This document shows, one piece after another, positions 18,588-39,744 of a stretch of DNA of 59,782 bases. How positions within the stretch are numbered: position 1 is the first letter of the stretch; each line of letters opens with the position of its first letter. Position numbers and translations under genes: made by a program. Source of the DNA: Blastocatellia bacterium. GTDB taxonomy: Bacteria > Acidobacteriota > Blastocatellia > RBC074. The notes under the pieces are model-generated. The model saw only the letters and a program-made list of their open reading frames with translations. It ran no database searches and was not told where the DNA came from. The DNA is taken from assembly GCA_046155425.1 (NCBI GenBank), contig JBJXFM010000485.1, forward strand, positions 1-59,782, given 5' to 3'.

Positions 18588-19385
18588 TTATTCGCCTTTT
18601 TTCTGTCCTGGCGCGAGGCGCAGCTTTTTGGCGTCACGCGTCAGATAGACCGTATAGCCATAGAGATCGCTGCGATAGAGCGTATGCACATATTCAATGG
18701 GCCGCCCCTCGACGGTGAACACGGTGCGTTCGATGGACAGGAGCGGTGCTCCGATGCGGACATCGAGCAGGCCGGCGACATACGGGTCGGCCAGCGCGGC
18801 GGTGATCCGTTGCCGCGCATCGCGCAGTTTAAGCGCGAATTTTGTTTCCGGCAGCCGCGGCAAGGCGCCGGTGTTCAGTTCCTCGGGCGAGAGTTGCGAA
18901 CCGATATCCGCCGGCAGGTAATTGACGATCAGGCTGTCCGGCTGCTCGTCACGCAGGCGCAGGCGTTTGAGGCGATAGAGCGTGTCCCCGGGGGTGATAA
19001 CGAGGATTTCGGCCTCGTGGGCGTCGGCGTCGACACGGTTCATTTCCAGCGCCCTGACCAGCGTGTCCTGGCCCATGCTGATCAGTTCATCCAGCGATCC
19101 GGTCAGGTGAATGGCGCCATCGAAACTTTTACGTTGCGTGCGGCGTGCGGCGACAACGGCGCCGCGCCCCTGCCGCCGTTCAATCAGCCCTTCCCCGGCC
19201 AGGGTGGACAGGGACTGGCGGACGGTGATGCGGCTGACGCCATATTGCTCGATCAGTTCGCTTTCCGTCGGGAGGCGTTCGCCGGGGCCAAACGCGCCGG
19301 ACAGGATTTTTTCGCGCAGCAGGTTTTCCAGCTGGTAATAGAGTGTGACACGGCTGCTGGCAAAAGATGATCTGGGACGGGCCAT
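18588..19385 (-). CDS. GntR family transcriptional regulator, HutC subfamily (UTRA effector domain)
   Basis: 265 aa. Winged-helix LPTESELIEQYGVSRITVRQSLSTLAGEGLIERRQGRG followed by a UTRA-like C-terminal domain. Confidence 0.85.
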   Translation of the reverse strand: MARPRSSFASSRVTLYYQLENLLREKILSGAFGPGERLPTESELIEQYGVSRITVRQSLSTLAGEGLIERRQGRGAVVAARRTQRKSFDGAIHLTGSLDELISMGQDTLVRALEMNRVDADAHEAEILVITPGDTLYRLKRLRLRDEQPDSLIVNYLPADIGSQLSPEELNTGALPRLPETKFALKLRDARQRITAALADPYVAGLLDVRIGAPLLSIERTVFTVEGRPIEYVHTLYRSDLYGYTVYLTRDAKKLRLAPGQKKGE

Positions 19386-19388
19386 AGG

Positions 19389-19438
19389 GAAGGCGGAATC
19401 ATCGGGAGCGTATTGTGCGCGGCGGCGATTCCGCCTTC
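19389..19438. promoter_or_regulatory. perfect 12-bp inverted repeat directly upstream of the GntR start
   Basis: gaaggcggaatc (19389-19400) and gattccgccttc (19427-19438) are exact reverse complements with a 26-nt spacer. It lies between the DUF4288 stop (19489) and the GntR ATG (19385). It could be a terminator/attenuator hairpin or an operator. Confidence 0.4.
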
Positions 19439-19488
19439 GCCGCAGTGTTTGTGTCCGGGCAGCTCGGCTTTCACCTTTCGCGGGTGAA

Positions 19489-20001
19489 CTATTTTGCCTT
19501 TTTTCTGCCGGCTGTTTTTTTTGCCGGCGTCGTTTTCTCCTGCGTGTGCCGCTCTTCTTTTTCCGCCTCTTCCATCATGGCGCGGGCCAGTTCGCGGTCC
19601 ATGAAGTTGATGCGCTTGCCGTGCAGGACCTCTGTTTCGTCCTGGCCGAAACGCGCGTTGACCAGCGCGGCGTCCGTTTTGCCGCGGCTGACGATTTCCG
19701 TGGCGGAATAGATCTCGACGCCGGCCCCGGGGTCGGCGAGCAGTTCATACAACTCGCATGTGTCCAGATAACGCGCCTTGACGCGCTGGCCGAGCACGCT
19801 GGTGAAATCGACGCGGTCGCAATAGGCGCGGGCCTCGTCCTCGGCCTTTTTCAGCGCTTCGTCCTCGTTGCGGGCGCGGAACAGGACCACGCGTTCCTCG
19901 GCGAGGGTGACGTTGGGATCATAGCCGCGCGTTTTGTATTCGGGCTCCCCGTGGGCCTCCAGACGGAACAGTGTTTTGACCGAGTACCATACCCATGCCA
20001 T
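19489..20001 (-). CDS. DUF4288 domain protein with basic C-terminal tail
   Basis: 170 aa. WYSVKTLFRLE...ERVVLFRARNEDEALKKAEDEARAY...GAGVEIYS fits my recollection of the DUF4288 pattern. The tail is TTPAKKTAGRKKAK. Confidence 0.6.
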   Translation of the reverse strand: MAWVWYSVKTLFRLEAHGEPEYKTRGYDPNVTLAEERVVLFRARNEDEALKKAEDEARAYCDRVDFTSVLGQRVKARYLDTCELYELLADPGAGVEIYSATEIVSRGKTDAALVNARFGQDETEVLHGKRINFMDRELARAMMEEAEKEERHTQEKTTPAKKTAGRKKAK

Positions 20002-20375: not shown

Positions 20376-20404
20376 TTGACAATCAGCGTACCGAGGCATA
20401 TGTT
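20376..20404 (+). promoter_or_regulatory. candidate sigma70-type promoter upstream of the orphan cluster
   Basis: TTGACA (20376-20381), a 17-nt spacer, then TATGTT (20399-20404), in an AT-richer intergenic stretch ~185 nt upstream of the ATG at 20589. Pattern match only. Confidence 0.25.
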
Positions 20405-20588: not shown

Positions 20589-21113
20589 ATGGCGGATATC
20601 GACATTCATTATGACCCACTGGCCGTTAACGTTAACCCGAGCACGGTGGCGCTGACGGGGCTGAATGATATACAGAGCCGGATTACGCTCGAGACACCGC
20701 AACCGGTGCGCGCCGACACGCGCACGGAGCTGGTCCTGCCACAGCCGTTCAGAACGGAAATAAATGTTCCCGATCCGATTCGCACGGAAAGCACGGCGGC
20801 GCTGGATATCAGACCACTGGCGCTGGATCAGTGTCTCAACCTGCGTTTCGCGCCATTGCCGGCGACCTGTGTCCGCCTGCCGTATCAGCAGCATGTCGGG
20901 TTGACGTGGTTTGGCGTGGAAATCCTCGGCCTGACATTGCGCGGCGAGGCGCAGACCATCGTCGAGCCGTTGCCCGACAAACCAAAGGTTGTCTGGGGCG
21001 CCACGGAATCAGCAATACGGCCTGGCGATGGCGCGACGCATGACGCCATACATGGAGAAGGCTGCGGAAATCCGCCTTCTTCACAGGGCGCGCTGCGCAT
21101 ACGGCTGGGATAA
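20589..21113 (+). CDS. orphan cytoplasmic protein A with PxP-h-R-T-E repeats
   Basis: 174 aa. The ATG is preceded by AGGAAAGG. No signal peptide or TM. Contains PQPVRADTRTE / PQPFRTE / PDPIRTE repeats (nt 20697-20789). No family recognised. Confidence 0.7.
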   Translation: MADIDIHYDPLAVNVNPSTVALTGLNDIQSRITLETPQPVRADTRTELVLPQPFRTEINVPDPIRTESTAALDIRPLALDQCLNLRFAPLPATCVRLPYQQHVGLTWFGVEILGLTLRGEAQTIVEPLPDKPKVVWGATESAIRPGDGATHDAIHGEGCGNPPSSQGALRIRLG

Positions 21114-21146: not shown

Positions 21147-21968
21147 ATGAGCACAACGGAGAAAAAATCCAGACCTGCCATACAGCATGTTCACATTCAT
21201 GGTCCCGGGGGCGATGGAGCCATTGTTCTGGCTGGCGACCCGGCGTCCATCACGGGTGTCGTGCGCCTGCACAACCGCGGACCCGAGAAAATCATCGTGC
21301 GTGAGGCCTGGTTGCTGAACCTGAAGTTGCATCTGTCGCAACCCGAGGGGGGCACGGCGCCGGCTTGTCCGGTTTCGTTTTCGGGCATGACAGTTGATCC
21401 GGGCGCCGCGCAGACGGTGTCGCTGCGGCTGGATCTTGACCGGCGGACGCCGCCGGGCGAATACCAGGGTGAACTGCACATGGCCGGGCTGCAAACCCCG
21501 GCGCGTCTTTATGTCATGCCCTCCGTCCGCGCGCGTGTTTCTCCACGCCCCTGTGTCATCGACCGGCGCGCTGGCGCCAGCGTCACGGCACACCTGGCCA
21601 TCGCCAACGAAGGGAATGTGCCGCTATATCTGAGCGAAATCGGGCAGGTTCCGCTGTTCGAGGACCTGCTGTTGCGGCGCAGCGTGGCGTCCATTCTGTC
21701 CGGTGACACGCCCGCGCTGCTGGAAAACCTCGCGCCGAAAGCGGCGGATGATGGCGGCGCCGGCGGGGCTGTCAGCCCGCAAAAGGGCACGCTGCTGATT
21801 CGCAACGAGGCGTTGACGCTCGCCCCCGGCGAAACGCGCCGCGTGGAAATAGAGGTACGGTTGCCGGATCATCTGCAACCAAATACGCGGTATCTGGCGC
21901 GCTTCCCGCTGTACACCACCGAGATTGAATTCGTTATTGTCCCGTCGGGTAACCCGGCGCCGGATTGA
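21147..21968 (+). CDS. orphan cytoplasmic protein B with two beta-sandwich (Ig/CARDB-like) modules
   Basis: 273 aa with a strong SD (GGGAGGAG) 4 nt upstream. Two modules with alternating-hydrophobic strand patterns: ITGVVRLHNRGPEKIIV...MTVDPGAAQTVSLRLDL and VTAHLAIANEGNVPLYL...LTLAPGETRRVEIEVRLP. No signal peptide. Confidence 0.75.
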   Translation: MSTTEKKSRPAIQHVHIHGPGGDGAIVLAGDPASITGVVRLHNRGPEKIIVREAWLLNLKLHLSQPEGGTAPACPVSFSGMTVDPGAAQTVSLRLDLDRRTPPGEYQGELHMAGLQTPARLYVMPSVRARVSPRPCVIDRRAGASVTAHLAIANEGNVPLYLSEIGQVPLFEDLLLRRSVASILSGDTPALLENLAPKAADDGGAGGAVSPQKGTLLIRNEALTLAPGETRRVEIEVRLPDHLQPNTRYLARFPLYTTEIEFVIVPSGNPAPD

Positions 21969-22021
21969 CCCGGACGTTCGCGGGTATCAAAACAAAGTTC
22001 GCATTACTGGAGGAACAAAGC

Positions 22022-22753
22022 ATGCAGAACACGATGTCACATGTGATGGGCGGGGATGCGCGGCGGATGTTTCCGGACAGGAGCGCGGCTGTTCAGCCAC
22101 GCGCCTGCGACGCCTGCGGGCGCGCCCTTGCTCCCGCAGGCGCGGACTGGATGGGGCAATGGTACGACGCGATGTATCGCGGCGCGGCCCCGCTGGCCGG
22201 CCAGATGATGACGGAGGTGATGCGGACATGGGATCGCATGGCGCGGGGCATGTTCGATTCGCTGACACCGCCGCCCATGCCCGGCGCGCATGTCGCGAAT
22301 TGCGGTTGCGCGCGTTGCCGCCCGGACGATTGCCACTGCCGTTGTTGCGTCGTCAACGCCGATCTGCTGGTCAACGCGCGTGTCGGGGAACGCCGCGTGG
22401 TTCCGCTGGTCATCGAAAACAACATGCGGCGCGAACGCGAAGTTTCCCTGGAACTCAGTTCGTGGACAAACCGCGATGATAAGGGAATCCAGGTCGCCGG
22501 GCTGATCGAGGGACCAACGAAATTCACGCTGAAGGCCTGCGAAGAGCGCGTCGTCACGCTCATCGTCAATGTCAGCGGTGCGCCAACGCCGGGGGCGAAC
22601 GAAAACAGAATGCAGGACGTGACGGAATGCCAGGTCGTGTACGCCGATCTGCGTGTCGTTGGCTGTGACATACGGCCCATCCGCATTGCCGTCAGCGTGT
22701 TGCCACGCGATTGCGGCCCCACGCGCATCGATTGCCGCTGCGGGTGTTGCTGA
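22022..22753 (+). CDS. orphan protein C: Met-rich N-terminus, Cys knot, one beta-sandwich module, CRCGCC terminus
   Basis: The start is moved to the ATG at 22022 (GGAGGA 7 nt upstream). An in-frame TTG at 21965 that overlaps the B stop is an alternative. 243 aa. By my count, 12 Met in the first 90 residues. NCGCARCRPDDCHCRCC at nt 22301-22348. 17 Cys in total. The protein ends ...DCGPTRIDCRCGCC. Confidence 0.75.
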   Translation: MQNTMSHVMGGDARRMFPDRSAAVQPRACDACGRALAPAGADWMGQWYDAMYRGAAPLAGQMMTEVMRTWDRMARGMFDSLTPPPMPGAHVANCGCARCRPDDCHCRCCVVNADLLVNARVGERRVVPLVIENNMRREREVSLELSSWTNRDDKGIQVAGLIEGPTKFTLKACEERVVTLIVNVSGAPTPGANENRMQDVTECQVVYADLRVVGCDIRPIRIAVSVLPRDCGPTRIDCRCGCC

Positions 22754-22806
22754 CAGTTCCGGAAACGCGTGTGACCGGACAAGAGGGGCCGAATGGGGAA
22801 AAAGCC

Positions 22807-23622
22807 ATGGCGAATGAATTACAGAATCTGAGCGACTGGATGCAGGGACTGCTGTCACGTTCGGTCGAGGAACAGTTGCGCGCCTCGCAGCGTTATTTCG
22901 AGGTCATGCAACGCGCCGGGCGCGGCGAGTTGTTGACGCGGCCGGCCGGGGAAAATTACTGGCGTTTCGTGCAGGAAGAAGGAACGCGGTTCGCGCGCGA
23001 CTGGACGACACTGACAGTGAATTATTACAACGGGCTGGCCGAACTGGGCCGCGCGTGGAATGACACATATTTCGAACAGGTGCTGGGCATGCGTGTGACC
23101 GAGGGCGCCATGGCCACGGCCGGCGTGGCGCACGAGGGGCCGCATGCCGCGCCGGCGCCGGTTGCTCCACGGCGCGTCGAACTGGAAATGCGCGCGGCCA
23201 GCGGGACTGAGGCGACCGCTGCGTTTGCGCTGGAAAACAGACAGAACGAGGCGCTGCGGATTTCGTTTCTCGTGTCGGATTTTGTCAGCGCCGACGGGAC
23301 AAGTTCACTGCGCCCGCCGCTGCAAATAGAGCCCTCCCGCTTCACGCTGCCCGCCGGGATGGAACAGGCCGTCACCCTGCGCCTGCCCGTGACCGCCGAA
23401 TTCCTGCCGGGCCAGCCATACAGCGCGACGATTGTCGTCCAGGGATATGACCATCTCGAACTGATCGTGCATCTGCTGGCGGAACCATCCCCCGTGATCG
23501 AAGCGCAGAACATGGCGGCGCATAAAGCCGCGCCAAAGCGCGCGAAAGCAAAACCGGCCGGCGCGCCGGCGCGCGGCAAATCTCCTGAAACGGCCGGCAG
23601 ACGTTCAGGCAGCCGCCGCTGA
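22807..23622 (+). CDS. orphan protein D: helical phasin-like N-terminus, one beta-sandwich module, Lys/Arg/Ala/Pro tail
   Basis: The start is set at the ATG at 22807 (MANELQNLSDWMQGLL...). The module contains ATAAFALENRQNEALRISFL...FTLPAGMEQAVTLRLPV...YSATIVVQG. The tail is HKAAPKRAKAKPAGAPARGKSPETAGRRSGSRR. Confidence 0.75.
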   Translation: MANELQNLSDWMQGLLSRSVEEQLRASQRYFEVMQRAGRGELLTRPAGENYWRFVQEEGTRFARDWTTLTVNYYNGLAELGRAWNDTYFEQVLGMRVTEGAMATAGVAHEGPHAAPAPVAPRRVELEMRAASGTEATAAFALENRQNEALRISFLVSDFVSADGTSSLRPPLQIEPSRFTLPAGMEQAVTLRLPVTAEFLPGQPYSATIVVQGYDHLELIVHLLAEPSPVIEAQNMAAHKAAPKRAKAKPAGAPARGKSPETAGRRSGSRR

Positions 23623-23682: not shown

Positions 23683-26190
23683 ATGGACCGAAAGAGCAGC
23701 AAACGTCGTAATGACACGAAAACGGCGGCGGCCACGCCCGCGCCGCCACGCGCCCGTGGAAAGAAAGCCTCCAAAGACACGGACCCGGCGTTCCTAGCTC
23801 CTGCGGCGCTCGCGAATCCGCCGCGAAAACGCGCACGGGCAGGCGCGCCGCCATCATCCGCACAGCCGTCATCCGCCCGCGCCGAAACGTCGCATGCCGA
23901 AACGCCCCTTCCGCCCAAAACCCGCGTCGCCATTGCCGATGCGCCAGGGCAGGACAAATTCGCATTGCTGGAATCCGCGTTGCGGCAGGCGGGGTTCCGG
24001 GAACATCTGGCGGCGGCCTGCCAGCGCGGACCGGGTTCCCCGGACGCCATGCGCATCCTCATCAAACCGGACTTCAGTGTCTTTGAGGCGCACGGCGCCA
24101 CGGGCACGGACCCGGCGCTGGTCGAACATCTCATCGACCTGCTGCACGCATGGGGTTACACCAACGCACAGGTTTGCGAGGGGCCGAACAGTTTCGATCT
24201 GTGGCTGGAAAACCGCGATGTCCTCGTCCTCGCCGAAATGATCGGATACCGCTTTGTTACGCCGGCAGGCAATTCATATGACGTCCTGGATCTCAGTGAA
24301 GATGTCATCCCATTGGACTTTCCGGCCGGCAGCGCCCTGCACGGCGCCGGGCTGGCGCGCGTATGGGTCGAGGCCGATTACCGCATTTGCTTTGCGCGGA
24401 ACAAGACGGACGAGGAAGAGTTTTACGCACTCGGCCTGCACAACCTGGCGGGCGCGTTGCCGTTGCGGGACAAGGATTACCATTACCGGCATCGCCTTGA
24501 TCCGCGCGATGTCGCGTCTGAATTGCTGCGGCGGACGCCGGCGCATTTCAGCGTGATTGACGCCTCGGTCAGCAACCATGGCGGCGCCGGCGCGCGCGTT
24601 TCCCATCCGCTGGCGACCGCGACCATGATTGCCAGTTCCGACCTCCTGCTCGCGGACTGGGCGGCCGCGCGGAAAATGGGGCTGGATCCGTATGTCTCGC
24701 GGCGCAACGCGGCGGCGTTGCGGGAAATCGGCCTGCCGGTGGCCTATGAAGTCGCCGGCTCGCTGGCGCCGTATCCCGGCTGGATCAACGTGCATCCGCT
24801 GATGGCCGATTCCGTGCGGCGGCGCAATCGTTCGCTGACCGTGATGCGCCTGCTGGCGCCATGGCTGCAAACGGCCGATCCGGCGCTGTTCCCGTTCCGC
24901 GATGTCCTCAATGAGCGGCTCAACAACCTGCTGGCGCGCAATCTGTCACGCCCGGACGAACAGCCGGGAACATTCTGGGCCACGGTCGCGCTCAACTATG
25001 CCCTGGGCGCGGCGCACGACGGCGTGACGACATACCAGACGCTGTTCGACAAGGATCGCCTGCGCTGGCGCGAGGCGCCGCTCAATATCGACCTGCTCGA
25101 ACATCGCCTGACGGAATACGAGGCGATTGTCGACTATCTGGCGCCGCTCGCAAACCTGGTGGCGGACGCGCCGGCGGATCGCGAGGGACTGCGCTGGTGT
25201 GATTACGGCAAATCCGTGCTGTTCAGCTTTTCCCGCGTGATTCCCGCGCCGTATGACGATTTTGTCGCGCGTGTCGCGATCACCGAGGCCATTCAGCTGA
25301 TGAACGATTACATCGGCGGCGTCGCGGTTCCGGTCGCGCACGACGCCGATGGGCGCGTCACGCATCAGGCCGAACGCAATCTGTATCTGCCGCAACCGAA
25401 TTACCTGGCGCTGTATCAGGGAGAAATCATTGATGTGACGAAGCTCGAATACATCGTGTATGAAGCCGGCGCGCGGCGCATTTACTGGCGCACGGTGAAA
25501 AGCGCCAACGCCTCGGCGGAATACGACGACGGCATGGTGACATTCGCCCGGACGGAAGCGGGCGAAACACTGGTGACAATCATGGGGCGGCAATTGTTCA
25601 CCCTGCCGGTGTTCTGGAAAATCGTCAATCTCGAACTGAATCCCATGCTCAGGGAATATCTGGTGGCCAATGCATACAGCGATTTTTTCACGCGGACGCT
25701 GAACAATTTCGAGGCGAAATACGAGGGCCGCGAAATCCGCATCGGCCGCGCGTGGAATCACGAACAGGGCGAACCCGGAGCCGCGGCGAACGAACGCATG
25801 CCAGCCGAAGTGGTGGCGGAGCTGCTGGGCCGCGCCGGCGCGGCGGTCAATCGCAACTGGGACACGATCGCGCGCTTTCTGCCGCGTAAATATCAAACAG
25901 AGAAGTCGGCACAGGGGCCAGCACAGGGGCCAGGGCCCGATGCGGGCGCGGGACACGGGGCTGTAAATGGCGTTGCGCGGGGCGTAGTCGATGAAGACGG
26001 CTTCACACACGTACGCCCGCCGTCGGGCGATGCGTTTGTCACGAACGGGGTGGAGGATTCCGCCGCGACGGAAACAGAAGACGATCTGCGGCGTCTTTTC
26101 AATCGCGCCAAAAGCGGTTCGCGGACATTTTTCAAAGACCTGACAGCGGCCGTCAAAAAGGATCTGGGCCGGCCGGGGAAACAGGACTGA
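23683..26190 (+). CDS. basic disordered N-terminus + DUF362 domain + unassigned ~350-aa C-terminal region
   Basis: 835-aa ORF. The first ~110 residues are Lys/Arg/Pro/Ala-rich. DUF362-like pattern: MRILIKPDF...TDPALVEHLIDLL...ADYRICFARNKTDEE...FSVIDASVSNHGG...MIASSDLLLADWAAARKMGLDP. The C-terminus LRRLFNRAKSGSRTFFKDLTAAVKKDL looks amphipathic. There is no obvious SD, so the start is uncertain. Confidence 0.7.
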   Translation: MDRKSSKRRNDTKTAAATPAPPRARGKKASKDTDPAFLAPAALANPPRKRARAGAPPSSAQPSSARAETSHAETPLPPKTRVAIADAPGQDKFALLESALRQAGFREHLAAACQRGPGSPDAMRILIKPDFSVFEAHGATGTDPALVEHLIDLLHAWGYTNAQVCEGPNSFDLWLENRDVLVLAEMIGYRFVTPAGNSYDVLDLSEDVIPLDFPAGSALHGAGLARVWVEADYRICFARNKTDEEEFYALGLHNLAGALPLRDKDYHYRHRLDPRDVASELLRRTPAHFSVIDASVSNHGGAGARVSHPLATATMIASSDLLLADWAAARKMGLDPYVSRRNAAALREIGLPVAYEVAGSLAPYPGWINVHPLMADSVRRRNRSLTVMRLLAPWLQTADPALFPFRDVLNERLNNLLARNLSRPDEQPGTFWATVALNYALGAAHDGVTTYQTLFDKDRLRWREAPLNIDLLEHRLTEYEAIVDYLAPLANLVADAPADREGLRWCDYGKSVLFSFSRVIPAPYDDFVARVAITEAIQLMNDYIGGVAVPVAHDADGRVTHQAERNLYLPQPNYLALYQGEIIDVTKLEYIVYEAGARRIYWRTVKSANASAEYDDGMVTFARTEAGETLVTIMGRQLFTLPVFWKIVNLELNPMLREYLVANAYSDFFTRTLNNFEAKYEGREIRIGRAWNHEQGEPGAAANERMPAEVVAELLGRAGAAVNRNWDTIARFLPRKYQTEKSAQGPAQGPGPDAGAGHGAVNGVARGVVDEDGFTHVRPPSGDAFVTNGVEDSAATETEDDLRRLFNRAKSGSRTFFKDLTAAVKKDLGRPGKQD

Positions 26191-26243
26191 ACGACAGGGC
26201 GAGGACGCGTGTGAGCGGAAACGATTCTTTCCATGGAGCAGGC

Positions 26244-27335
26244 GTGAAAGTACTGGTCACCGGCGCGAGCGGGCTGATCGGCGCGAGTCTCGTGCGGGAA
26301 CTGCTGACGGCGGGATGCCACGTGCGCGCGCTGGTCCGCCCGACCAGCGATCCGCGCGCCCTGGCGGGCCTGCCGGTCGAGATTGTCCATGGTGACATCC
26401 TCTCGCCGGACAGCCTTGCCGCGGCGGCGGCGGATTGCGAACTGTTGTTTCATACGGCGGCGATTTTTGCCTATCAGGGGCATACGGACAGGCAACTCGA
26501 AAGCGTCGCGGTGGATGGAACGATCAACGCGCTGGAAGCGGCGCGGCGCGCGGGTGTGCGGCGTGTCACGCTGACATCGTCAAGCGTGACCCTCGGATCC
26601 GCCGCCACGCGGACGATCCGGGATGAAAACGATACGCTGACCGGCGCGCCGGATTCCGCCTACGCCGCTGCCAAGGTCCGGCAGGAACAGGCGGCGTTCG
26701 CCCGCGCGGCGGAGCTGGGGCTCGATCTCGTGGTTGTCTGTCCGACGATCACCGTGGGGCCGCACGATTTCCGCCTGAGTCCGAGCAACGGGGCGATCAT
26801 GACGTATCTGGCCGATCCTTTCCGCATCACCTTTCCGGGCGGTTGCAATGTCGTCGCGGCGCGGGATGTGGCGCGCGGGCATCTGCTGGCGGCGGCAAGG
26901 GGAGAGACAGGACAGCGTTATGTCCTTGGCGGCGAGAACCTGGAATGGATCGACATCCATCGCCTGATCGCGCGGCTGTGCGGCGTGCCGGGACCGCTGT
27001 CCTTTACGAACCATACCGGGGCTTATCTGACGGCGGCGGCGCACGAACTGGTGTCGTGGCTGGGGCGCAGGCCGCCAACGACCACGCGGACACAGGCGCG
27101 CATGGTGGGACGTTATTACTGGTACCGGCACGAACGCGCGGCCGCGCTGGGATATGCGCCGGCGCCCGCCCGGGAAGCGCTGGCCACGGCCGTCGCCTGG
27201 CTGGCGGCCAGCCCGCATGTTTCACGCGCGCTCCGCGCCACGCTGCGTCTGTCGCGCGAGGTGTATGACGCGCGGCGAAAGATGGAGCAGGCCGAGGCCG
27301 CGTTGCGTGGAAGGCCGGTAGCCGGTGGACGGTAG
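26244..27335 (+). CDS. NAD(P)-dependent epimerase/dehydratase-family SDR (dihydroflavonol-reductase / HpnA-like)
   Basis: (M)KVLVTGASGLIGASLVRELL Rossmann motif and YAAAK catalytic motif. I prefer the GTG at 26244 (GGAG 6 nt upstream) over the track start at 26211. Confidence 0.8.
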   Translation: MKVLVTGASGLIGASLVRELLTAGCHVRALVRPTSDPRALAGLPVEIVHGDILSPDSLAAAAADCELLFHTAAIFAYQGHTDRQLESVAVDGTINALEAARRAGVRRVTLTSSSVTLGSAATRTIRDENDTLTGAPDSAYAAAKVRQEQAAFARAAELGLDLVVVCPTITVGPHDFRLSPSNGAIMTYLADPFRITFPGGCNVVAARDVARGHLLAAARGETGQRYVLGGENLEWIDIHRLIARLCGVPGPLSFTNHTGAYLTAAAHELVSWLGRRPPTTTRTQARMVGRYYWYRHERAAALGYAPAPAREALATAVAWLAASPHVSRALRATLRLSREVYDARRKMEQAEAALRGRPVAGGR

Positions 27336-27467: not shown

Positions 27468-28007
27468 ATGAAAACCTTCAGCAGCATTGTTGTCGTCAAA
27501 CATCCGCGCGAGCTGGTCTGGACAACCATTCGCGATCATTTGCCGGAACTGACGCCGTTTCTGGACGACATTGACGCGATTTCCGTGTCGGAACGCGACG
27601 AAGAGCCGAATGGCACGGTCCGGCTGGTCAACCTGTGGAAAGCGAGCCCGCCGATTCCGGCGTTGCTGTCCTCGGTGCTCGATCCGGAGATGCTGGCGTG
27701 GGTGGATCGCGCCGAATACCAGCCGCAACAGTACGAATGTCACTGGCAAATCGAGCCGCGTTTCTTTCCGGACCGGACGCGCTGCGCCGGCGTGACGCGT
27801 TACGAAACGGCGCTGGGCGGCCGTGGCACAAAGATTACGTTCAGTGGCGGGCTGGGCGTGGCGATGGAAAACCTGGCGGGTGTCCCCGCGTTTATGGAAG
27901 GGACGGTCAGGCGCGGCGTGGAATCCTTTGTGACCACGCTGATTCCCAAAAACTTTCGCCGCCTGACCGATGCGCTCTCGCAATATCTGACGCGGCAGGG
28001 CGTCTGA
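27468..28007 (+). CDS. SRPBCC (START/polyketide-cyclase-like) family protein
   Basis: 179 aa. The N-terminus SSIVVVKHPRELVWTTIRDHLPEL and the overall size and pattern are typical of the SRPBCC ligand-binding fold. The SD AAGAGGA lies upstream. Confidence 0.6.
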   Translation: MKTFSSIVVVKHPRELVWTTIRDHLPELTPFLDDIDAISVSERDEEPNGTVRLVNLWKASPPIPALLSSVLDPEMLAWVDRAEYQPQQYECHWQIEPRFFPDRTRCAGVTRYETALGGRGTKITFSGGLGVAMENLAGVPAFMEGTVRRGVESFVTTLIPKNFRRLTDALSQYLTRQGV

Positions 28008-28011
28008 ACGC

Positions 28012-29232
28012 TCACGGTCCGCCGATCAGGTGCGCGTGGTGAAAGCCCAGCCGCGGGTCGGCGAGGCGAGGCAACGAAGGGACGTAATCGTGCAGCGGCG
28101 GCATCTGCACGCGGAAACGCAGGGTCGTTTCGGGGTAATCGTAAATCGTAATGTGGTTGAGGCCACGGTTGGCCGTGAACAGCAACGACTGATCCGCCGA
28201 GAGCTGACAGCCATAAATCGAATCGAGCAGGGAAAAACGGCTGACGCGCATGGCGCCGAAAAAATGCCGGTTGCCCGTGAAAAAACCGCCGCGGGCGAAT
28301 ACGTCATACACCTGTGTCGCGATTTCACGCGGATGCCGCAGGCTGGTCAGCAGGTCGGGCCGCTCATCGATCAGGCGGAAATCGGCCATGGATTCCAGGT
28401 CGATGAGGACCACGGACTGGCTGCCGCCGTTGCAGAAAATCAGCTCGCGGTCCGAGATCGTCACGTCGGAATTGATATGCGCGGGTGTTTCCCGCGTGGT
28501 CGCCCAGTGCCGCCGCACCTGTTTGCTTTCCGCGTCGACCTCAAAGGCGTATTCCTTGAGAAAGGCCATCGCCCATTCGTGATAATCGACATAGTCCTGG
28601 GGCAGGACGCGAAAGGAAACGCAGTAAAACAGGTCCTCGCGCGGATGGCAGACGAGGTGCCAGCAGGTCGCCGGCAATTCAATGCGCGTGGCCTGACCGG
28701 TCCGCATATCCCAGACGCCGACTTCGCGCGCTTCTCCATGTTTCGGGTGATCCATCGAGCCGTAGCAGAGATATTTTTTCGAGGGCGTCAGTTTCATCGA
28801 ATGCGGCAGCTTGACGAGATGCGGGCCGAGGCGTTCACCCTTTGACAAATCGCGCAGGTTGAAACGGTAAAAATAATCACCGATGGCCGTGATGAATTCC
28901 TCGTTGTTCAGCCATACCAGATGCGTGCTGCCGCGCAGGGAGGTGTCATTGGCCTCGAAACGCAGGGTGGAAATGCGCCCGATTTCACTCAGGTCCGCCG
29001 GATCGAAAAAGAGCAGGTGCTGCCCGGCGTTTCCCAGAAACCCGGCCGTGCCCGCCGGGTTGACGCTGACCCAGTGCCCGGCGGCGATGCCGGGGAAATA
29101 ACGGATTTTCCAGGCATGCGCCTGACCGGCCGGGTTGTACAGAAACAGACACACACCCGCCATGCCCTCAAGGCCGTTAATGCCATTGCCATCCAGCGCT
29201 ACGTAAAAGGCGTATGGATACCCTTTCAGCAT
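28012..29232 (-). CDS. hypothetical 406-aa protein (beta-rich, possibly propeller-like; no family recognised)
   Basis: Long ORF with no signal peptide. It converges on the SRPBCC gene with 4 nt between the stops. No motif I can name. Confidence 0.6.
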   Translation of the reverse strand: MLKGYPYAFYVALDGNGINGLEGMAGVCLFLYNPAGQAHAWKIRYFPGIAAGHWVSVNPAGTAGFLGNAGQHLLFFDPADLSEIGRISTLRFEANDTSLRGSTHLVWLNNEEFITAIGDYFYRFNLRDLSKGERLGPHLVKLPHSMKLTPSKKYLCYGSMDHPKHGEAREVGVWDMRTGQATRIELPATCWHLVCHPREDLFYCVSFRVLPQDYVDYHEWAMAFLKEYAFEVDAESKQVRRHWATTRETPAHINSDVTISDRELIFCNGGSQSVVLIDLESMADFRLIDERPDLLTSLRHPREIATQVYDVFARGGFFTGNRHFFGAMRVSRFSLLDSIYGCQLSADQSLLFTANRGLNHITIYDYPETTLRFRVQMPPLHDYVPSLPRLADPRLGFHHAHLIGGP

Positions 29233-29448: not shown

Positions 29449-30039
29449 ATGCTGAAAAAACAGACAGGAGAAGTCAGGTTGCCAGGCGGCGTCGCGGACA
29501 GCGTGTGGCAGCGCGTGTTCGCATATCTGTTCGCATACCTGGATGCCCGCGAGGCGGGGCTGGTACGGATCATGGTCAGCCAGTGCGGGGCGCCACACTG
29601 GCGCCGTCTGTGGATCACGCTGAACCGGCTGGGGAATGGCTGGCTGTATCTGCCGCTGGCCGTGCTGGCGCCGCTCCTGGCGGGGCGGCGGAGCATCCCC
29701 TTTTTGCGGGTGGCCGCGTTGTCGCTGATCGTGGCTTTTCTGTTGTATTCGTTTCTCAAACCGCGTCTGGCGCGCCTGCGTCCCTGTGATCTGGATCCGG
29801 GGATGTCGACGGCCGTGCTGGCGCTGGATAAATATTCCTGTCCCAGCGGGCATTGCATGACGGCGGCGGCGATTGGCTATCCGCTGGCGCACGAGTTTCC
29901 GTCATTGCTGTTGCTGGTGATCGCCGGCTGGGGGCTGATTGCCTGGTCGCGGCTGTCGCTGGGGCATCATTACCCCACGGACCTGCTGGCCGGAGGGCTC
30001 ATCGGCGCCGGGGTTTCCTGGCTGATTTCCGCTTTGTGA
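29449..30039 (+). CDS. PAP2 family phosphatase (membrane)
   Basis: KPRLARLRP...PSGHCMTAAA...SRLSLGHHYPTDLLAG are the three PAP2 motifs (KxxxxxxRP, PSGH, SRxxxxxHxxxD). Confidence 0.85.
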   Translation: MLKKQTGEVRLPGGVADSVWQRVFAYLFAYLDAREAGLVRIMVSQCGAPHWRRLWITLNRLGNGWLYLPLAVLAPLLAGRRSIPFLRVAALSLIVAFLLYSFLKPRLARLRPCDLDPGMSTAVLALDKYSCPSGHCMTAAAIGYPLAHEFPSLLLLVIAGWGLIAWSRLSLGHHYPTDLLAGGLIGAGVSWLISAL

Positions 30040-38325: not shown

Positions 38326-39744
38326 ATGGAAAAGGATTTGCTCGATTCCGCATCGCCTGCCCGCCGCTGGTTTCTGCAACAGTGCGGCATGGGCATGGGT
38401 TCGCTGGCGCTGGCCTCGCTGCTGGGCGATGAAACGCGCGCGCAGGCCCCCGGCGAGGACCCGCTCGCGCCCAAAAAGACGCACTTCCCGCCGAAAATCA
38501 AAAACATCATCTATCTGTTCATGGCCGGCGGGCCCAGCCACCTCGAACTGTTCGACAACAAACCACAACTGGCGAAATTCAGCGGCACACTGCCGCCACC
38601 CGAGTTGCTGAAAGGTTATCGCGCGGCCTTCATCAATCCGAATTCGACCCTGCTCGGACCACGCTTTAAGTTCTCGAATCACGGACAGTGCGGCGCCGAG
38701 ATTTCCGAGCTGCTGCCCTATACCGCGCAGATCGCCGACGACATCACCATCGTCAAATCCATGGCCACCGACGCGTTCAATCACGCGCCCGGCCAGCTGA
38801 TGATGAACACCGGCGCGATGATTTTCGGCCGCCCGAGTTTCGGGTCCTGGGTGGTCTATGGCATGGGCAGCGAAGCGCGCGACCTGCCCGCCTTTGTCGT
38901 ATTCAGCACGGGATCCAAGGGACCCAGCGGCGGAAACAGTTGCTGGGGCAGCGGGTTTCTGCCGACTGTCTATCAGGGTGTGCAGTTCCGCAACACCGGC
39001 GACCCGGTGCTCTATCTGTCCAACCCGCGCGGCGTCGATGAAAAACTGCAGCGCGACACCCTCGACACGATCAACAAACTCAACCGCATGCGCCTCGATG
39101 TCATGGGCGATCCGGAAATCGCCACGCGCATCAATTCCTATGAAATGGCCTTCAAAATGCAGGCCAGCGCCCCCGACGCCCTCGACCTGACAAAGGAACC
39201 GAAACACATTCTGGAAATGTACGGCGCGGAACCCGGCAAGCCTTCGTTCGCCAATACCGTGCTGATGGCGCGCAAACTGGTCGAACGTGGCGTGCGTTTT
39301 GTCCAGGTGTACCACGAGGCATGGGATCAGCACGGATCGCTGACGCGCGACCTGCGCAAAAACTGTCTGGATACCGATCAGGCCTGCGCGGCGCTGGTGA
39401 AGGACCTGAAACAACGCGGGATGCTCAAGGATACGCTGGTTATCTGGGGTGGCGAATTTGGCCGCACGCCGATGGTCCAGGGCGGCGACGACGGCCGCGA
39501 TCATCATCCGAATGCCTTTACCATGTGGATGGCCGGCGGCGGATTCAAGCCGGGTCTGACCCTGGGCGAAACCGATGATCTGGGCTTCAATGCCGTCAAG
39601 GATCGCGTGCACGTGCATGACCTGCACGCGACGTTGCTGCAACAGCTGGGCTTTGATCACGAGAAACTGACATACAGGTTCCAGGGACGTGATTTCCGCC
39701 TGACCGACGTGCAGGGGCTGGTGGTGGATAAGCTGCTGGCGTGA
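38326..39744 (+). CDS. DUF1501 domain protein (sulfatase-like fold) with twin-arginine signal
   Basis: Tat-like signal [50 protein letters not shown] and DGRDHH are DUF1501 signatures. Confidence 0.85.

What the first reader, a model, noticed from the sequence alone, without database searches (positions are those of the whole stretch)
21219..23470. Four paralogous beta-sandwich modules spread over three consecutive signal-less proteins
The modules share the same two landmark strands.
- First strand: ITGVVRLHNRGPEKIIV (B1), VTAHLAIANEGNVPLYL (B2), RVVPLVIENNMRREREVSL (C), ATAAFALENRQNEALRISFL (D).
- Second strand: MTVDPGAAQTVSLRLDL...PGEYQGELHMAG (B1), LTLAPGETRRVEIEVRLP...NTRYLARFPLYT (B2), FTLKACEERVVTLIVNV...VVYADLRVVG (C), FTLPAGMEQAVTLRLPV...PGQPYSATIVVQG (D).
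The h-x-h-x-N-x-G and (F/L)T(L/V)xxGxxxxVxL pattern is what CARDB/DUF11/PapD-like Ig folds show. Those are normally extracytoplasmic, whereas here none of the carriers has an export signal. A locally duplicated, cytoplasmic Ig-like module family is unusual.
Basis: partly seen in the sequence, partly recalled or inferred. Interest (0 to 1): 0.65.

Follow-up and report, generated by a model that had tools for sequence, protein, structure and literature searches.

The report
Cytoplasmic Ig-fold cassette beside lipid genes
Three neighbouring genes encode four anciently related immunoglobulin-like (PapD/ASH-type) beta-sandwich modules with no export signal, and with a fourth gene they form an unnamed cassette, conserved across at least five bacterial phyla, that always lies next to lipid or isoprenoid-type genes.

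Summary
All quoted strands are in the sequence, in genes B (21147-21968, two modules), C (22022-22753) and D (22807-23622).

- **Relatedness:** family profiles link the D module to C (E 5e-12), B1 (2e-9) and B2 (5e-8). Six control profiles give nothing.
- **Fold:** AlphaFold2 models of B and C show Ig-like sandwiches. Their closest solved folds are PapD-type chaperones, ASH domains and major sperm protein.
- **Location:** none of 181 homologues, and 1 of 147 further representatives, has a signal-like N-terminus. Cytoplasmic location stands.
- **Age:** the duplication is ancient, not recent.

The context is new. A-B-C-D is a fixed cassette found in Chloroflexota, Actinomycetota, Alpha- and Betaproteobacteria, Acidobacteriota and Cyanobacteriota. 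All members are annotated as hypothetical. The cassette sits beside one of two gene sets:

- a DUF362 protein, an HpnA-like reductase, a START-like protein, a very conserved 406-aa protein and often PAP2 (as in this window);
- a polyprenyl diphosphate synthase, a tocopherol-cyclase-like protein and an SCP2 protein.

C carries about 14 conserved cysteines. D often ends in a histone-H1-like, helix-hairpin-helix or zinc-ribbon-like tail.

My best reading is a soluble Ig-module scaffold or coat for a hydrophobic lipid pathway, tethered to the nucleoid in many lineages. That function is inferred, not shown.

The parts
20376..20404 (+). Promoter-like site (TTGACA-17-TATGTT) upstream of gene A; possible operon start
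   Evidence: Consensus scan, 10 of 12 matches. A consensus match only; function is inferred.
20589..21113 (+). Gene A (174 aa), first gene of the cassette. It has three 'PxP[VFI]R[AT][DE]' short repeats (nt 20697-20789), a conserved core 'DxxPxxxDxCL...GLTxFGxE', and a conserved C-terminal 'GLRIRLG' (nt 21087-21110). It is not an Ig module by profile.
   Evidence: Alignment A6. Repeat counts of 0-3 in 32 homologues, with a His-rich linker in 9 of 32. hhalign against the modules is below 10%. No Pfam family.
21147..21968 (+). Gene B (273 aa): two tandem Ig-like modules
   Evidence: GGGAGGAG ribosome-binding site before the ATG. 54 homologues. AF2 pLDDT 86.8. Foldseek matches tandem ASH, FnIII and transglutaminase-C domains.
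21189..21515 (+). Module B1 (B aa ~15-123)
   Evidence: Strands 15-123 in the model. Pfam NPCBM_assoc 28 bits. B1-Dm hhalign E 1.9e-9.
21531..21938 (+). Module B2 (B aa ~129-264), with a low-confidence helical insert at aa 176-200
   Evidence: B2-Dm hhalign E 5e-8 and 8.4e-8. Invariant 'NxGNVPL'.
22022..22753 (+). Gene C (243 aa): amphipathic long helix, Cys cluster, Ig-like module, Cys cluster
   Evidence: GGAGGA before the ATG at 22022. 146 homologues. Alignments A1 and A3. AF2 model.
22301..22348 (+). N-terminal Cys motif CxCxxC...DCxCxCC (C aa 94-109)
   Evidence: C96 and C99 nearly invariant; C104, C106, C108 and C109 invariant or nearly so.
22358..22705 (+). Module C (C aa ~113-228), with conserved Cys173, Cys203 and Cys215 in or beside its loops
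   Evidence: pLDDT above 90 for most of 115-226. Foldseek matches Caf1M, PapD, OCRL-ASH, HYDIN and MSP at E 4e-5 to 7e-4. Cm-Dm hhalign E 4.9e-12.
22706..22750 (+). C-terminal Cys motif RDC...DCxCxCC (C aa 229-243)
   Evidence: C231, C238 and C243 invariant; C240 and C242 at 90% or more, in 120 sequences.
22807..23622 (+). Gene D (271 aa): amphipathic helical N-domain (aa 1-95), linker, Ig-like module, basic tail
   Evidence: Alignment of 48 D sequences. The profile search finds 641 representatives. Amphipathicity test.
23170..23481 (+). Module D (D aa ~122-225), the hub of the four-module family
   Evidence: Significant profile matches to B1, B2 and C.
23482..23619 (+). Lys/Arg/Ala/Pro-rich basic tail of D (11 K/R in the 49 residues aa 223-271, which include the module's last three residues)
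   Evidence: Homologues carry H1-like, HhH (Pfam HHH_5) or zinc-ribbon-like tails, or none.
23683..26190 (+). Gene E (835 aa): DUF362 domain (aa 125-330) plus a large conserved C-terminal region with no family. It always follows D in type I loci.
   Evidence: Pfam DUF362 1.6e-16. Synteny. No PDB relative.
26211..27335 (+). Gene F: HpnA-like / 3-beta-HSD-type NAD-dependent SDR
   Evidence: Pfam Epimerase and 3Beta_HSD. NCBIfam HpnA 250.8 bits (below the 367.65-bit cut-off) and SdmB 151 bits.
27468..28007 (+). Gene G (179 aa): probable SRPBCC/START-like lipid-binding protein
   Evidence: Weak but full-length Polyketide_cyc2 match, E 0.023, aa 3-157. Conserved in type I loci.
28012..29232 (-). 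Gene H (406 aa): extremely conserved protein with many invariant His and no family; possibly a beta-propeller enzyme
   Evidence: Mean column identity 67% across phyla. Only a faint Lactonase-propeller hit. No PDB relative.
29449..30039 (+). Gene I: PAP2 membrane lipid phosphatase, an optional member of the cluster
   Evidence: Pfam PAP2 3.6e-18. Two TM-like segments. Present in 6 loci in all, the window included (layout).

Best explanation
**What it is.** B, C and D carry four anciently diverged, paralogous PapD/ASH-type Ig-like beta-sandwich modules. Together with A they form one conserved, soluble, cytoplasmic four-protein unit.

**How it most likely works.** The unit is a hetero-oligomeric scaffold or coat. 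Its Ig modules act as protein-protein interaction or assembly modules, and they organise a hydrophobic lipid pathway (probably isoprenoid-derived) encoded next door.
- In this window the partners are the DUF362 protein E, the HpnA-like reductase F, the START-like carrier G, the conserved protein H and the PAP2 phosphatase I.
- C contributes a metal-thiolate centre built from two DCxCxCC motifs that flank its module.
- D is the adaptor. Its gene always sits next to the enzyme genes. In many lineages, including this one, its basic, HhH or zinc-ribbon-like tail ties the assembly to the nucleoid or another polyanion.
- A supplies short linear repeats and a C-terminal strand that may dock onto the modules.

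**Shown:** homology, fold, absence of export signals, fixed gene order, and constant linkage to lipid-type genes.

**Inferred:** complex formation, metal binding, DNA tethering and the lipid substrate.
For: **Homology and fold**
- Profile comparisons.
- Models and fold matches.

**Cytoplasmic and soluble**
-.

**Fixed A-B-C-D order in 44 fetched loci plus the window, from Chloroflexota, Actinomycetota, Alpha- and Betaproteobacteria, Acidobacteriota and Cyanobacteriota**
- All 39 sequences with informative flanks (38 fetched loci plus this window) hold one of two partner sets.
- 25 (24 fetched loci plus this window) hold E-F-G-H, with or without PAP2.
- 14 loci hold a polyprenyl diphosphate synthase (Pfam 1e-59; IdsA/GGPP-synthase-like). 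Most of them also hold a DUF2804/tocopherol-cyclase-like protein and an SCP2-like protein, and half hold a 133-aa protein.
- In 7 loci the synthase gene lies between C and D.
- D is adjacent to E in every type I locus that holds both genes intact, even where A-B-C has moved elsewhere, as in Acidimicrobiaceae.
- Both partner sets include a lipid-carrier fold, START-like or SCP2.

**Metal binding**
- C has a median of 16 Cys and about 14 conserved positions.
- His-rich inserts recur in 31 of 120 C and 9 of 32 A proteins, but in 0 of 54 B proteins.

**Nucleoid tether**
- D tails of three unrelated nucleic-acid-binding types recur: H1-like K/A/P, HhH and zinc-ribbon-like.
- 54 of 147 further representatives have strongly basic tails.
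- Precedent: the lipid-droplet protein MLDS binds DNA through C-terminal PAKKA motifs (PMC5504291).

**Helices**
- The N-terminal helices of C and D are significantly amphipathic.
Against: - No direct evidence that A to D bind one another. No multimer modelling or co-variation analysis was possible.
- The lipid link rests on gene neighbourhood and on weak domain calls for G, H and Z: E 0.02 to 0.2, below Pfam thresholds.
- The two partner gene sets share little. A common substrate is therefore an assumption.
- Many D proteins have no tail at all: Alphaproteobacteria, Acidimicrobiaceae and the cyanobacterium. Nucleoid tethering cannot be the core function.
- The cyanobacterial C-like protein has lost most of the Cys motifs.
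- Amphipathic helices fit helical bundles as well as lipid surfaces.
- Two Anaerolineales contigs (L007, L010) show no lipid genes downstream of D. Their upstream flank is missing.
Confidence: 0.4

Rival explanations
1. The modules are lipid chaperones. Each Ig-like sandwich opens a hydrophobic pocket that hides a polyprenyl or other lipid chain, as in RhoGDI, PDE-delta/UNC119 or NPC2/ML domains. B, C and D would then be soluble carriers that hand intermediates between the neighbouring enzymes, rather than a structural scaffold.
For: The cassette is constantly linked to lipid or isoprenoid genes, and a polyprenyl diphosphate synthase gene is inserted between C and D. The proteins are soluble with no TM segments. 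Lipid-binding Ig-like sandwiches are an established class (my own knowledge).
Against: Each partner set already encodes a dedicated carrier fold, START-like G or SCP2. Foldseek's best matches are PapD, ASH and MSP protein-interaction domains, not RhoGDI or ML domains. The conserved residues are turn and surface motifs (TPPGEY, NxGNVPL, PGE), not an obvious pocket lining. Pocket geometry could not be inspected because no coordinates were available.
Confidence: 0.2
2. The cassette is a metal-handling or redox unit. C is an Fe-S, Zn, Ni or Cu thiolate protein. The His-rich A and C variants store or deliver a metal, or C passes electrons, to the neighbouring enzymes. One candidate recipient is E, whose DUF362 domain shares a Pfam clan with the nickel-pincer enzyme LarA. 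The Ig modules would be mere carriers.
For: About 14 conserved Cys arranged as duplicated DCxCxCC motifs. His-rich inserts in 31 of 120 C and 9 of 32 A proteins. DUF362 and DUF2088/LarA share clan CL0471 (PMC11770544).
Against: Type II loci keep A to D but lack E and H. The cyanobacterial C-like protein lacks most of the Cys. The His-rich stretches are variable inserts, not conserved. B and D have no metal motifs yet are equally conserved.
Confidence: 0.15
3. The proteins leave the cytoplasm by a non-classical route and build a surface or spore-coat structure. Assembly could use PapD-style donor-strand exchange, with A's C-terminal 'GLRIRLG' strand as the donor. That would fit the usual extracytoplasmic habitat of this fold.
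For: The closest solved folds for C are periplasmic PapD and Caf1M chaperones. The nearest non-cassette sequence relatives are giant multi-repeat proteins, one of them with a signal peptide. The many cysteines could form disulfides outside the cell.
Against: No signal-like N-terminus in 181 homologues, and 1 in 147 further representatives, that one being a 2900-aa repeat protein. No usher, secretin or transporter gene is conserved in the loci. D carries nucleic-acid-binding tails. The neighbours are cytoplasmic enzymes.
Confidence: 0.05
4. The resemblance is convergent or due to chance. Short beta-strand patterns such as h-x-h-x-N-x-G and FTLxPGE recur in unrelated beta-rich proteins of GC-rich genomes.
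For: Pairwise BLAST scores are low, 22-31 bits. B1-C and B2-C are not significant even as profiles.
Against: Profile E-values of 1e-8 to 1e-12 over 75-94 columns, with both landmarks in register. Six control profiles score below 10%. Only B, C and D are hit among 366 window ORFs. Three of the four modules have independently predicted Ig folds.
Confidence: 0.02

Closest known systems
PapD-like / ASH / MSP Ig-like beta-sandwich superfamily (PapD, Caf1M and DraB chaperones; HYDIN, CEP192 and OCRL ASH domains; nematode major sperm protein and VAP)
   Same: Same fold by Foldseek for B1, B2 and C, and for D by profile homology. ASH and MSP members are also cytoplasmic protein-interaction or polymerisation modules. 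VAP's MSP domain docks lipid-transfer proteins through short linear motifs (my own knowledge; reviews listed). That parallels a cassette sitting beside START-like and SCP2 genes, with a repeat-bearing partner A.
   Different: No sequence-level membership in any of these Pfam families. There is no signal peptide, no usher or pilin genes, and no C-terminal membrane anchor. ASH and MSP domains are eukaryotic. Here four modules are spread over three bacterial proteins, with Cys clusters and basic tails.
Pfam NPCBM_assoc (NEW3) and related E-set Ig domains (CARDB, fn3_5, FixG_C)
   Same: B1 passes the NPCBM_assoc gathering score (28.0 against 24.4 bits). 10 of 54 B homologues hit it, 5 hit fn3_5 and 3 hit FixG_C.
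   Different: Those domains are accessory modules of secreted glycosidases, proteases and envelope proteins. B2, C and D match none of them. No CARDB or DUF11 hit was obtained.
Bacterial extracellular multi-repeat ASH-like proteins
   Same: The D-module profile hits each repeat of giant proteins (P0250, P0303, P0262) on the 'N.G...L.I ... FTL.P..S..V.V.F' pattern.
   Different: Those proteins carry 7-15 tandem repeats and dockerin-like ends, and at least one has a signal peptide. The cassette proteins carry one or two modules and are cytoplasmic.
Granule and lipid-droplet surface proteins with DNA-binding tails (MLDS of Rhodococcus; PhaF and PhaM of PHA granules; TadA/HBHA)
   Same: D has an amphipathic helical N-domain plus, in many lineages, a K/A/P-rich histone-H1-like tail. 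MLDS binds DNA through C-terminal PAKKA motifs and tethers lipid droplets to the nucleoid (PMC5504291).
   Different: None of those proteins contains an Ig-like module or belongs to a four-gene cassette. No homology to D's N-domain was detected. Many D orthologues have no tail.
Soluble quinone-biosynthesis metabolon with lipid-carrier subunits (UbiJ SCP2 and UbiK; Coq10 START)
   Same: The concept matches: soluble proteins keep polyprenyl intermediates in the cytoplasm, using SCP2 or START folds. Both folds appear among the cassette's neighbours, and type II loci add a polyprenyl diphosphate synthase. The comparison rests on my own knowledge.
   Different: No Ubi or Coq enzymes are present. 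The Ubi metabolon has no Ig modules. This is an analogy only.

Membership tests
Ig-like beta-sandwich, PapD-like/ASH/MSP structural superfamily | Seven- to eight-stranded two-sheet beta-sandwich superimposable on known members | tested here: met
   B model pLDDT 86.8, with Foldseek E 6e-9 to 1e-6 against ASH, RbmA and transglutaminase-C tandems. C module pLDDT above 90 over most of it, with Foldseek E 4e-5 to 7e-4 against Caf1M, PapD, OCRL-ASH, HYDIN and MSP. D was not modelled. It is joined by profile homology at E 2e-9 to 5e-12.
Ig-like beta-sandwich, PapD-like/ASH/MSP structural superfamily | Sequence match to a curated family model (PapD_N, ASH, Motile_Sperm, DUF1573) | tested here: not met
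   No such Pfam hit for B, C or D, even at E up to 10. The family census shows only scattered NPCBM_assoc, fn3_5, FixG_C and Cep192_D3 hits for B and none for C.
Pfam NPCBM_assoc (NEW3, PF10633) | Score at or above the gathering threshold | tested here: met
   Met for B1 only: 28.0 bits against a cut-off of 24.4, aa 56-107, a partial match. 10 of 54 B homologues match. Not met by B2, C or D.
   Neither family appears.
Chaperone-usher periplasmic chaperones (PapD family) | Sec signal peptide and periplasmic location | tested here: not met
   No N-terminal hydrophobic region in 181 homologues. Maximal ORFs allow no hidden signal.
Chaperone-usher periplasmic chaperones (PapD family) | Adjacent usher and pilin subunit genes | tested here: not met
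   The conserved neighbours are DUF362, SDR, START-like, PAP2, polyprenyl synthase and SCP2 genes.
VAP-type MSP tethers | C-terminal transmembrane anchor, and an FFAT-motif-binding face | tested here: not met
   No TM segment in A to D. FFAT-type binding cannot be tested with these tools.
Lipid-droplet or granule proteins with DNA-binding tails (MLDS, PhaF, PhaM) | Lys/Ala/Pro-rich C-terminal tail of the PAKKA type | tested here: inconclusive
   Present in the window's D and in many homologues, e.g. L039 with 61 K/R in 161 aa and 54 of 147 representatives. Absent from alphaproteobacterial, Acidimicrobiaceae and cyanobacterial D. DNA binding was not tested.
Lipid-droplet or granule proteins with DNA-binding tails (MLDS, PhaF, PhaM) | Localisation on a lipid or polymer inclusion | not testable with these tools
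   Needs microscopy or fractionation.
Known anti-phage defence systems | Match to a PADLOC model | tested here: not met
   No hit for A to I.

The most novel reading that the evidence does not exclude
A-B-C-D builds a previously unrecognised cytoplasmic protein assembly. It would be made of PapD/MSP-like Ig modules, stabilised by a cysteine-thiolate metal centre. It would coat or scaffold an isoprenoid-type lipid body or a soluble lipid metabolon, and in many lineages it would be hitched to the nucleoid for inheritance. That would make it a bacterial counterpart of VAP/MSP lipid-transfer hubs or of lipid-droplet coats, present in at least five phyla.
Probability: 0.2. Interest if true: 0.8.

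Novelty: new variant of a known kind. Interest (0 to 1): 0.6.

Why it matters
- **An unusual habitat for a known fold.** Ig-like PapD/ASH-type domains in bacteria are almost always envelope or secreted modules. Here four paralogous copies are fixed in soluble cytoplasmic proteins.
- **A widespread, unnamed cassette.** It spans Chloroflexota, Actinomycetota, Proteobacteria, Acidobacteriota and Cyanobacteria. The D module alone has 641 representatives at the 50% identity level, and every member checked is annotated 'hypothetical'.
- **A testable function.** The constant partnership with lipid and isoprenoid-type genes, the lipid-carrier folds, the Cys-rich metal site and the nucleoid-binding tails all point to an uncharacterised way of organising hydrophobic metabolism in the bacterial cytoplasm.
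- **New families to define.** At least five protein families (A, C, D, H and Z) have no Pfam or NCBIfam model.
- **A host to work in.** The cassette occurs in at least one isolate with a complete genome, Sphingomonas sp. SUN019, and in a Kribbella isolate, so genetics and lipidomics could address its function directly.

Tried and rejected
- **Raw pairwise BLAST between the four window modules.** Too weak to decide, at 22-31 bits. Family profiles were needed.
- **First iterative HMM run over six-frame ORFs.** It timed out. The second run showed cross-family hits, possibly seeded by fused or over-extended ORFs. I rebuilt clean module profiles from called proteins before testing homology.
- **N-terminal helical regions of C and D.** No detectable homology, below 1% probability. 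A and G are unrelated to the modules.
- **PDB sequence and profile searches for E, G and H.** Nothing significant.
- **Pfam and NCBIfam for A, C, D, H, Y and Z.** No family. There are only faint hints for G (Polyketide_cyc2, E 0.023), H (Lactonase propeller, E 0.22) and Z (DUF2804, E 0.022; tocopherol cyclase, E 0.11).
- **PADLOC.** No defence-system match.
- **Literature.** Searches for DUF362, cytoplasmic PapD-like with polyprenyl, bacterial MSP-domain lipid transfer, and Ig-like lipid-droplet proteins found no description of this cassette. One listed DUF362 paper, opened, matched only on DUF3623.
- **Word-seeded homologue search for D.** It returned only 7 proteins. D orthologues had to be taken from fetched loci and from the exhaustive representative search.
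- **Mis-called starts hiding signal peptides.** Rejected. The maximal ORFs of B, C and D add no hydrophobic N-terminus.
- **Prenylation of C's C-terminal CxCxCC motif (Rab-like), or a ComQ-like role for the polyprenyl synthase.** Considered but left as untested speculation. Type I loci lack the synthase, and the same Cys motif also occurs internally.

Full report
**1. What is at the coordinates**

The region 20.5-30 kb of the window holds a run of genes on the + strand.

| Gene | Coordinates | Length | Note |
|---|---|---|---|
| A | 20589-21113 | 174 aa | |
| B | 21147-21968 | 273 aa | |
| C | 22022-22753 | 243 aa | ATG preceded by GGAGGA |
| D | 22807-23622 | 271 aa | |
| E | 23683-26190 | 835 aa | |
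| F | 26211-27335 | 374 aa | |
| G | 27468-28007 | 179 aa | |
| H | 28012-29232 | 406 aa | minus strand |
| I | 29449-30039 | 196 aa | |

- Intergenic gaps from A to F are 20-60 nt.
- A sigma-70-like site lies at 20376-20404.

**2. Are the four modules really related?**

Raw BLAST between the window's own modules is weak: C-D 27% over 78 aa at 30.8 bits, the others about 22 bits. I therefore collected families.
- B: 54 homologues.
- C: 146 homologues.
- D: 48 sequences, from a word-seeded search plus fetched loci.

Module-only profiles compared with hhalign:

| Pair | Probability | E-value | Columns |
|---|---|---|---|
| C-D | 97.5% | 4.9e-12 | 75 |
| B1-D | 96.3% | 1.9e-9 | 86 |
| B2-D | 94.8% | 5e-8 | 88 |
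| B1-B2 | 75% | 2.6e-5 | 40 |
| B1-C, B2-C | not significant | | |

Y.a.v.v.G) in register.
- The platform's own hhalign reproduces D-C (96.1%, E 3e-9, 94 columns) and D-B2 (94.5%, E 8.4e-8).
- The N-terminal regions of C and D, and the unrelated families A and G, served as controls. All score below 10% probability.
- A D-module HMM run against all 366 six-frame ORFs of the window hits only D, C (7e-10) and B (3e-9, both halves).

The modules are paralogous, with D as the hub.

**3. Fold**

- AlphaFold2 on the B alignment gives pLDDT 86.8 and pTM 0.77. It shows two all-beta domains, aa 15-123 and 129-264, the second with a floppy helical insert.
- Foldseek against the PDB returns tandem Ig-like domains. 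The hits are ASH/PapD-like proteins of the ciliary central pair, the CEP192 SPD-2 domain, RbmA and transglutaminase C-terminal domains, at E 6e-9 to 1e-6.
- The C model (pLDDT 77) has a long helix at aa 39-79, a low-confidence Cys-rich stretch, and a sandwich at aa 115-226 with pLDDT above 90 over most of it.
- The C sandwich matches Caf1M, PapD and DraB chaperones, the OCRL ASH domain, the HYDIN PapD-like domain and major sperm protein.
- Pfam recognises only B1, as NPCBM_assoc/NEW3 at 28.0 bits against a cut-off of 24.4.
- A census of homologues shows scattered Ig-family hits for B and none for C.
- The fold assignment is therefore solid. These are new sequence families within it.

**4. Export signals**

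- No homologue of B (54), C (120) or D (7) has an N-terminal hydrophobic stretch.
- A to H of the window have no TM-like segment.
- The longest possible ORFs add no signal.
- The D-module profile was searched against 1.84 billion representatives. It finds 641 proteins at E up to 1e-3 and 194 at E up to 1e-10.
- Nearly all of the best 150, the only ones listed, are 200-350-aa D-like proteins.
- Of 147 new representatives, only one has a signal-like N-terminus. It is a 2900-aa multi-repeat protein.
- A few giant repeat proteins with dockerin-like ends are hit repeat by repeat. They show where the module's extracellular cousins lie.

**5. Context: a conserved cassette**

Contexts of homologues and 39 loci from a species-representative genome collection were parsed with family HMMs.
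- A-B-C-D occurs in that order in Anaerolineae and other Chloroflexota, Acidimicrobiia and other Actinomycetota (including a Kribbella isolate), Sphingomonas, Phenylobacterium, Erythrobacter, a Burkholderiaceae MAG, a Thermoanaerobaculia MAG and Nodosilinea.
- Type I (24 fetched loci plus this window, 25 in all): D is followed by E (DUF362 plus a large unknown region), F (an HpnA-like SDR), G (~175 aa) and H (~406 aa, usually on the opposite strand). PAP2 is often present.
- In Acidimicrobiaceae the order is D-E-F-G-H(-)-A-B-C. D stays with E.
- Type II (14 loci): no E-H. Instead there is a polyprenyl diphosphate synthase. Pfam gives 1e-59, and the best NCBIfam models are IdsA and GGPP synthase.
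- In seven of these loci the synthase gene lies between C and D. In six Actinomycetota loci it lies upstream on the other strand.
- Type II loci also carry a ~350-aa protein with faint DUF2804 and tocopherol-cyclase similarity and an SCP2-like protein in most cases, and a 133-aa protein in about half.
- All 39 sequences with informative flanks belong to one of the two types. The rest are cut by contig ends.
- G gives a weak but full-length SRPBCC/Polyketide_cyc2 match.
- H is extraordinarily conserved, with 67% mean column identity and many invariant His, and has no family.
- RefSeq calls A, B, C, D and G of Sphingomonas sp. SUN019 'hypothetical protein'.
- No PADLOC match. No paper describing the cassette was found.

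**6. Anatomy of the four proteins**

- **A.** It has 0-3 copies of a short 'P[DEQ]P[IVLF][RK]T[DE]' repeat (three in the window), a small conserved core, a variable linker that is His-rich in 9 of 32 homologues, and a conserved C-terminal 'GLRIRLG'.
- **B.** Two modules, with invariant 'TPPGEY' and 'NxGNVPL'.
- **C.** An amphipathic helix, then CxxC...DCxCxCC, the module (with conserved C173, C203 and C215), then RDC...DCxCxCC at the very C-terminus.
  - The median is 16 Cys per protein, against 1 in B.
  - 31 of 120 homologues carry His-rich inserts.
  - From the strand order in the model I infer that the two DCxCxCC motifs, C203 and C231 lie at one end of the sandwich, and C173 and C215 at the other. 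No coordinates were available to check this.
- **D.** An amphipathic helical N-domain, a linker, the hub module, then a lineage-specific tail:
  - none in Alphaproteobacteria, Acidimicrobiaceae and the cyanobacterium;
  - a K/R/A/P-rich histone-H1-like tail in the window and many others, up to 61 K/R in 161 aa;
  - a helix-hairpin-helix domain (Pfam HHH_5) in several Chloroflexota;
  - a zinc-ribbon-like CxxCG..F.R...C motif in several Actinomycetota.
  - 54 of 147 further representatives have strongly basic tails.

**7. Most likely mechanism**

*Shown:* four paralogous cytoplasmic Ig-like modules, a fixed four-gene cassette, and obligatory neighbourhood with lipid or isoprenoid-type genes that include lipid-carrier folds.

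*Inferred:*
- A to D assemble into a soluble scaffold or coat. PapD/ASH/MSP-type modules are protein-interaction or polymerisation modules elsewhere.
- The scaffold organises a hydrophobic pathway.
- C holds a metal-thiolate centre.
- D links the cassette to the enzymes, by gene adjacency, and in many lineages to the nucleoid.
- Three unrelated nucleic-acid-binding tail types have been acquired at the same position. This mirrors MLDS, which tethers lipid droplets to DNA through PAKKA motifs (PMC5504291).

I put 0.4 on this composite. Rivals:
- lipid-chaperone modules, 0.2;
- a metal or redox unit, 0.15 (note that DUF362 shares a clan with LarA: PMC11770544);
- non-classical export, 0.05;
- chance similarity, 0.02.

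**8. Comparison with known systems, and novelty**

- The fold is known. The sequence families for A, C, D, H and Z are not in Pfam or NCBIfam.
- The cassette is not a chaperone-usher system: there is no signal peptide and there are no usher or pilin genes.
- It is not a VAP-type tether: there is no membrane anchor.
- It is not a known defence system.
- I rate it a new variant of a known kind: cytoplasmic, multi-protein use of the PapD/ASH fold. There is roughly a 20% chance that it represents a truly new kind of cytoplasmic lipid-organising assembly.
- Interest is 0.6. It is a solidly verified, widespread, unannotated system with a clear experimental path, but its function is still inferred.

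Noticed in passing
window 28012-29232 (-): Gene H (406 aa) has no Pfam, NCBIfam or PDB relative, yet it is 63-84% identical between phyla. It has dozens of invariant residues, including many His (HLxxHP, PAHINSD, NRGLNHI, GFHH). It is probably the key enzyme of the type I cluster, perhaps a metal-dependent beta-propeller.
   Followed up: partly
L006 2503-3531 and the equivalent genes in L011, L021, L028, L030, L039 and L043: A short-chain polyprenyl diphosphate synthase gene is inserted between cassette genes C and D. Its second Asp-rich motif reads DDxLN in all 14 orthologues. Its second-best NCBIfam model is the family 2 encapsulin cargo polyprenyl transferase.
   Followed up: partly
L006 5197-6243 and 6227-6679, with orthologues in most type II loci: A ~350-aa protein with faint DUF2804 and tocopherol-cyclase similarity, and an SCP2-like protein, travel with the cassette wherever E-H are absent. 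This suggests a prenyl-lipid cyclisation or hydration step.
   Followed up: partly
window 23683-23940 (E aa 1-85) and 23482-23619 (D tail): In this genome both the C-terminus of D and the N-terminus of E carry Lys/Arg/Pro/Ala-rich low-complexity extensions that many orthologues lack.
   Followed up: no
L041 7310-8782; L027 7600-9465: Single ORFs hit both the A and B HMMs (490 aa) or both the B and C HMMs (621 aa). These could be Rosetta-stone fusions that support physical interaction. L027 also has fragmented E and F genes, so assembly errors are just as likely.
   Followed up: no
L004 7339-7902 and 8906-9625 (Nodosilinea): The cyanobacterial cassette is divergent. The A-like protein has a different repeat ('QPVTLKL') and ends in CDVDCEPIDCEPMD. 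The C-position protein scores better with the D profile and has lost most of the Cys motifs.
   Followed up: partly
P0193, P0241, P0195: Some D-family proteins have a duplicated helical N-domain, or two Ig modules in tandem, followed by long Lys-rich tails.
   Followed up: no
window 2539-8466 (-): A 1975-aa ORF with a transglutaminase-like core (aa 1307-1403) and a C-terminal TPR motif. It is unrelated to the cassette.
   Followed up: no
window 18588-20001 (-): Upstream of the cassette, on the opposite strand, lie a DUF4288 protein with a Lys-rich tail (19489-20001) and a GntR/UTRA regulator (18588-19385). They are not conserved next to the cassette in other loci.
   Followed up: no
window 30164-32839 (+), 38326-39744 (+), 46699-48123 (-): Genes typical of a chromosome: a TonB-dependent receptor with a CarboxypepD_reg N-domain, a DUF1501 protein, and Ffh/SRP54. 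The window looks like ordinary chromosome of a Gram-negative-type, roughly 60-65% GC bacterium. It is not close to any genome in the collections: the best cassette-protein identity among fetched genomes is 47% for C.
   Followed up: no
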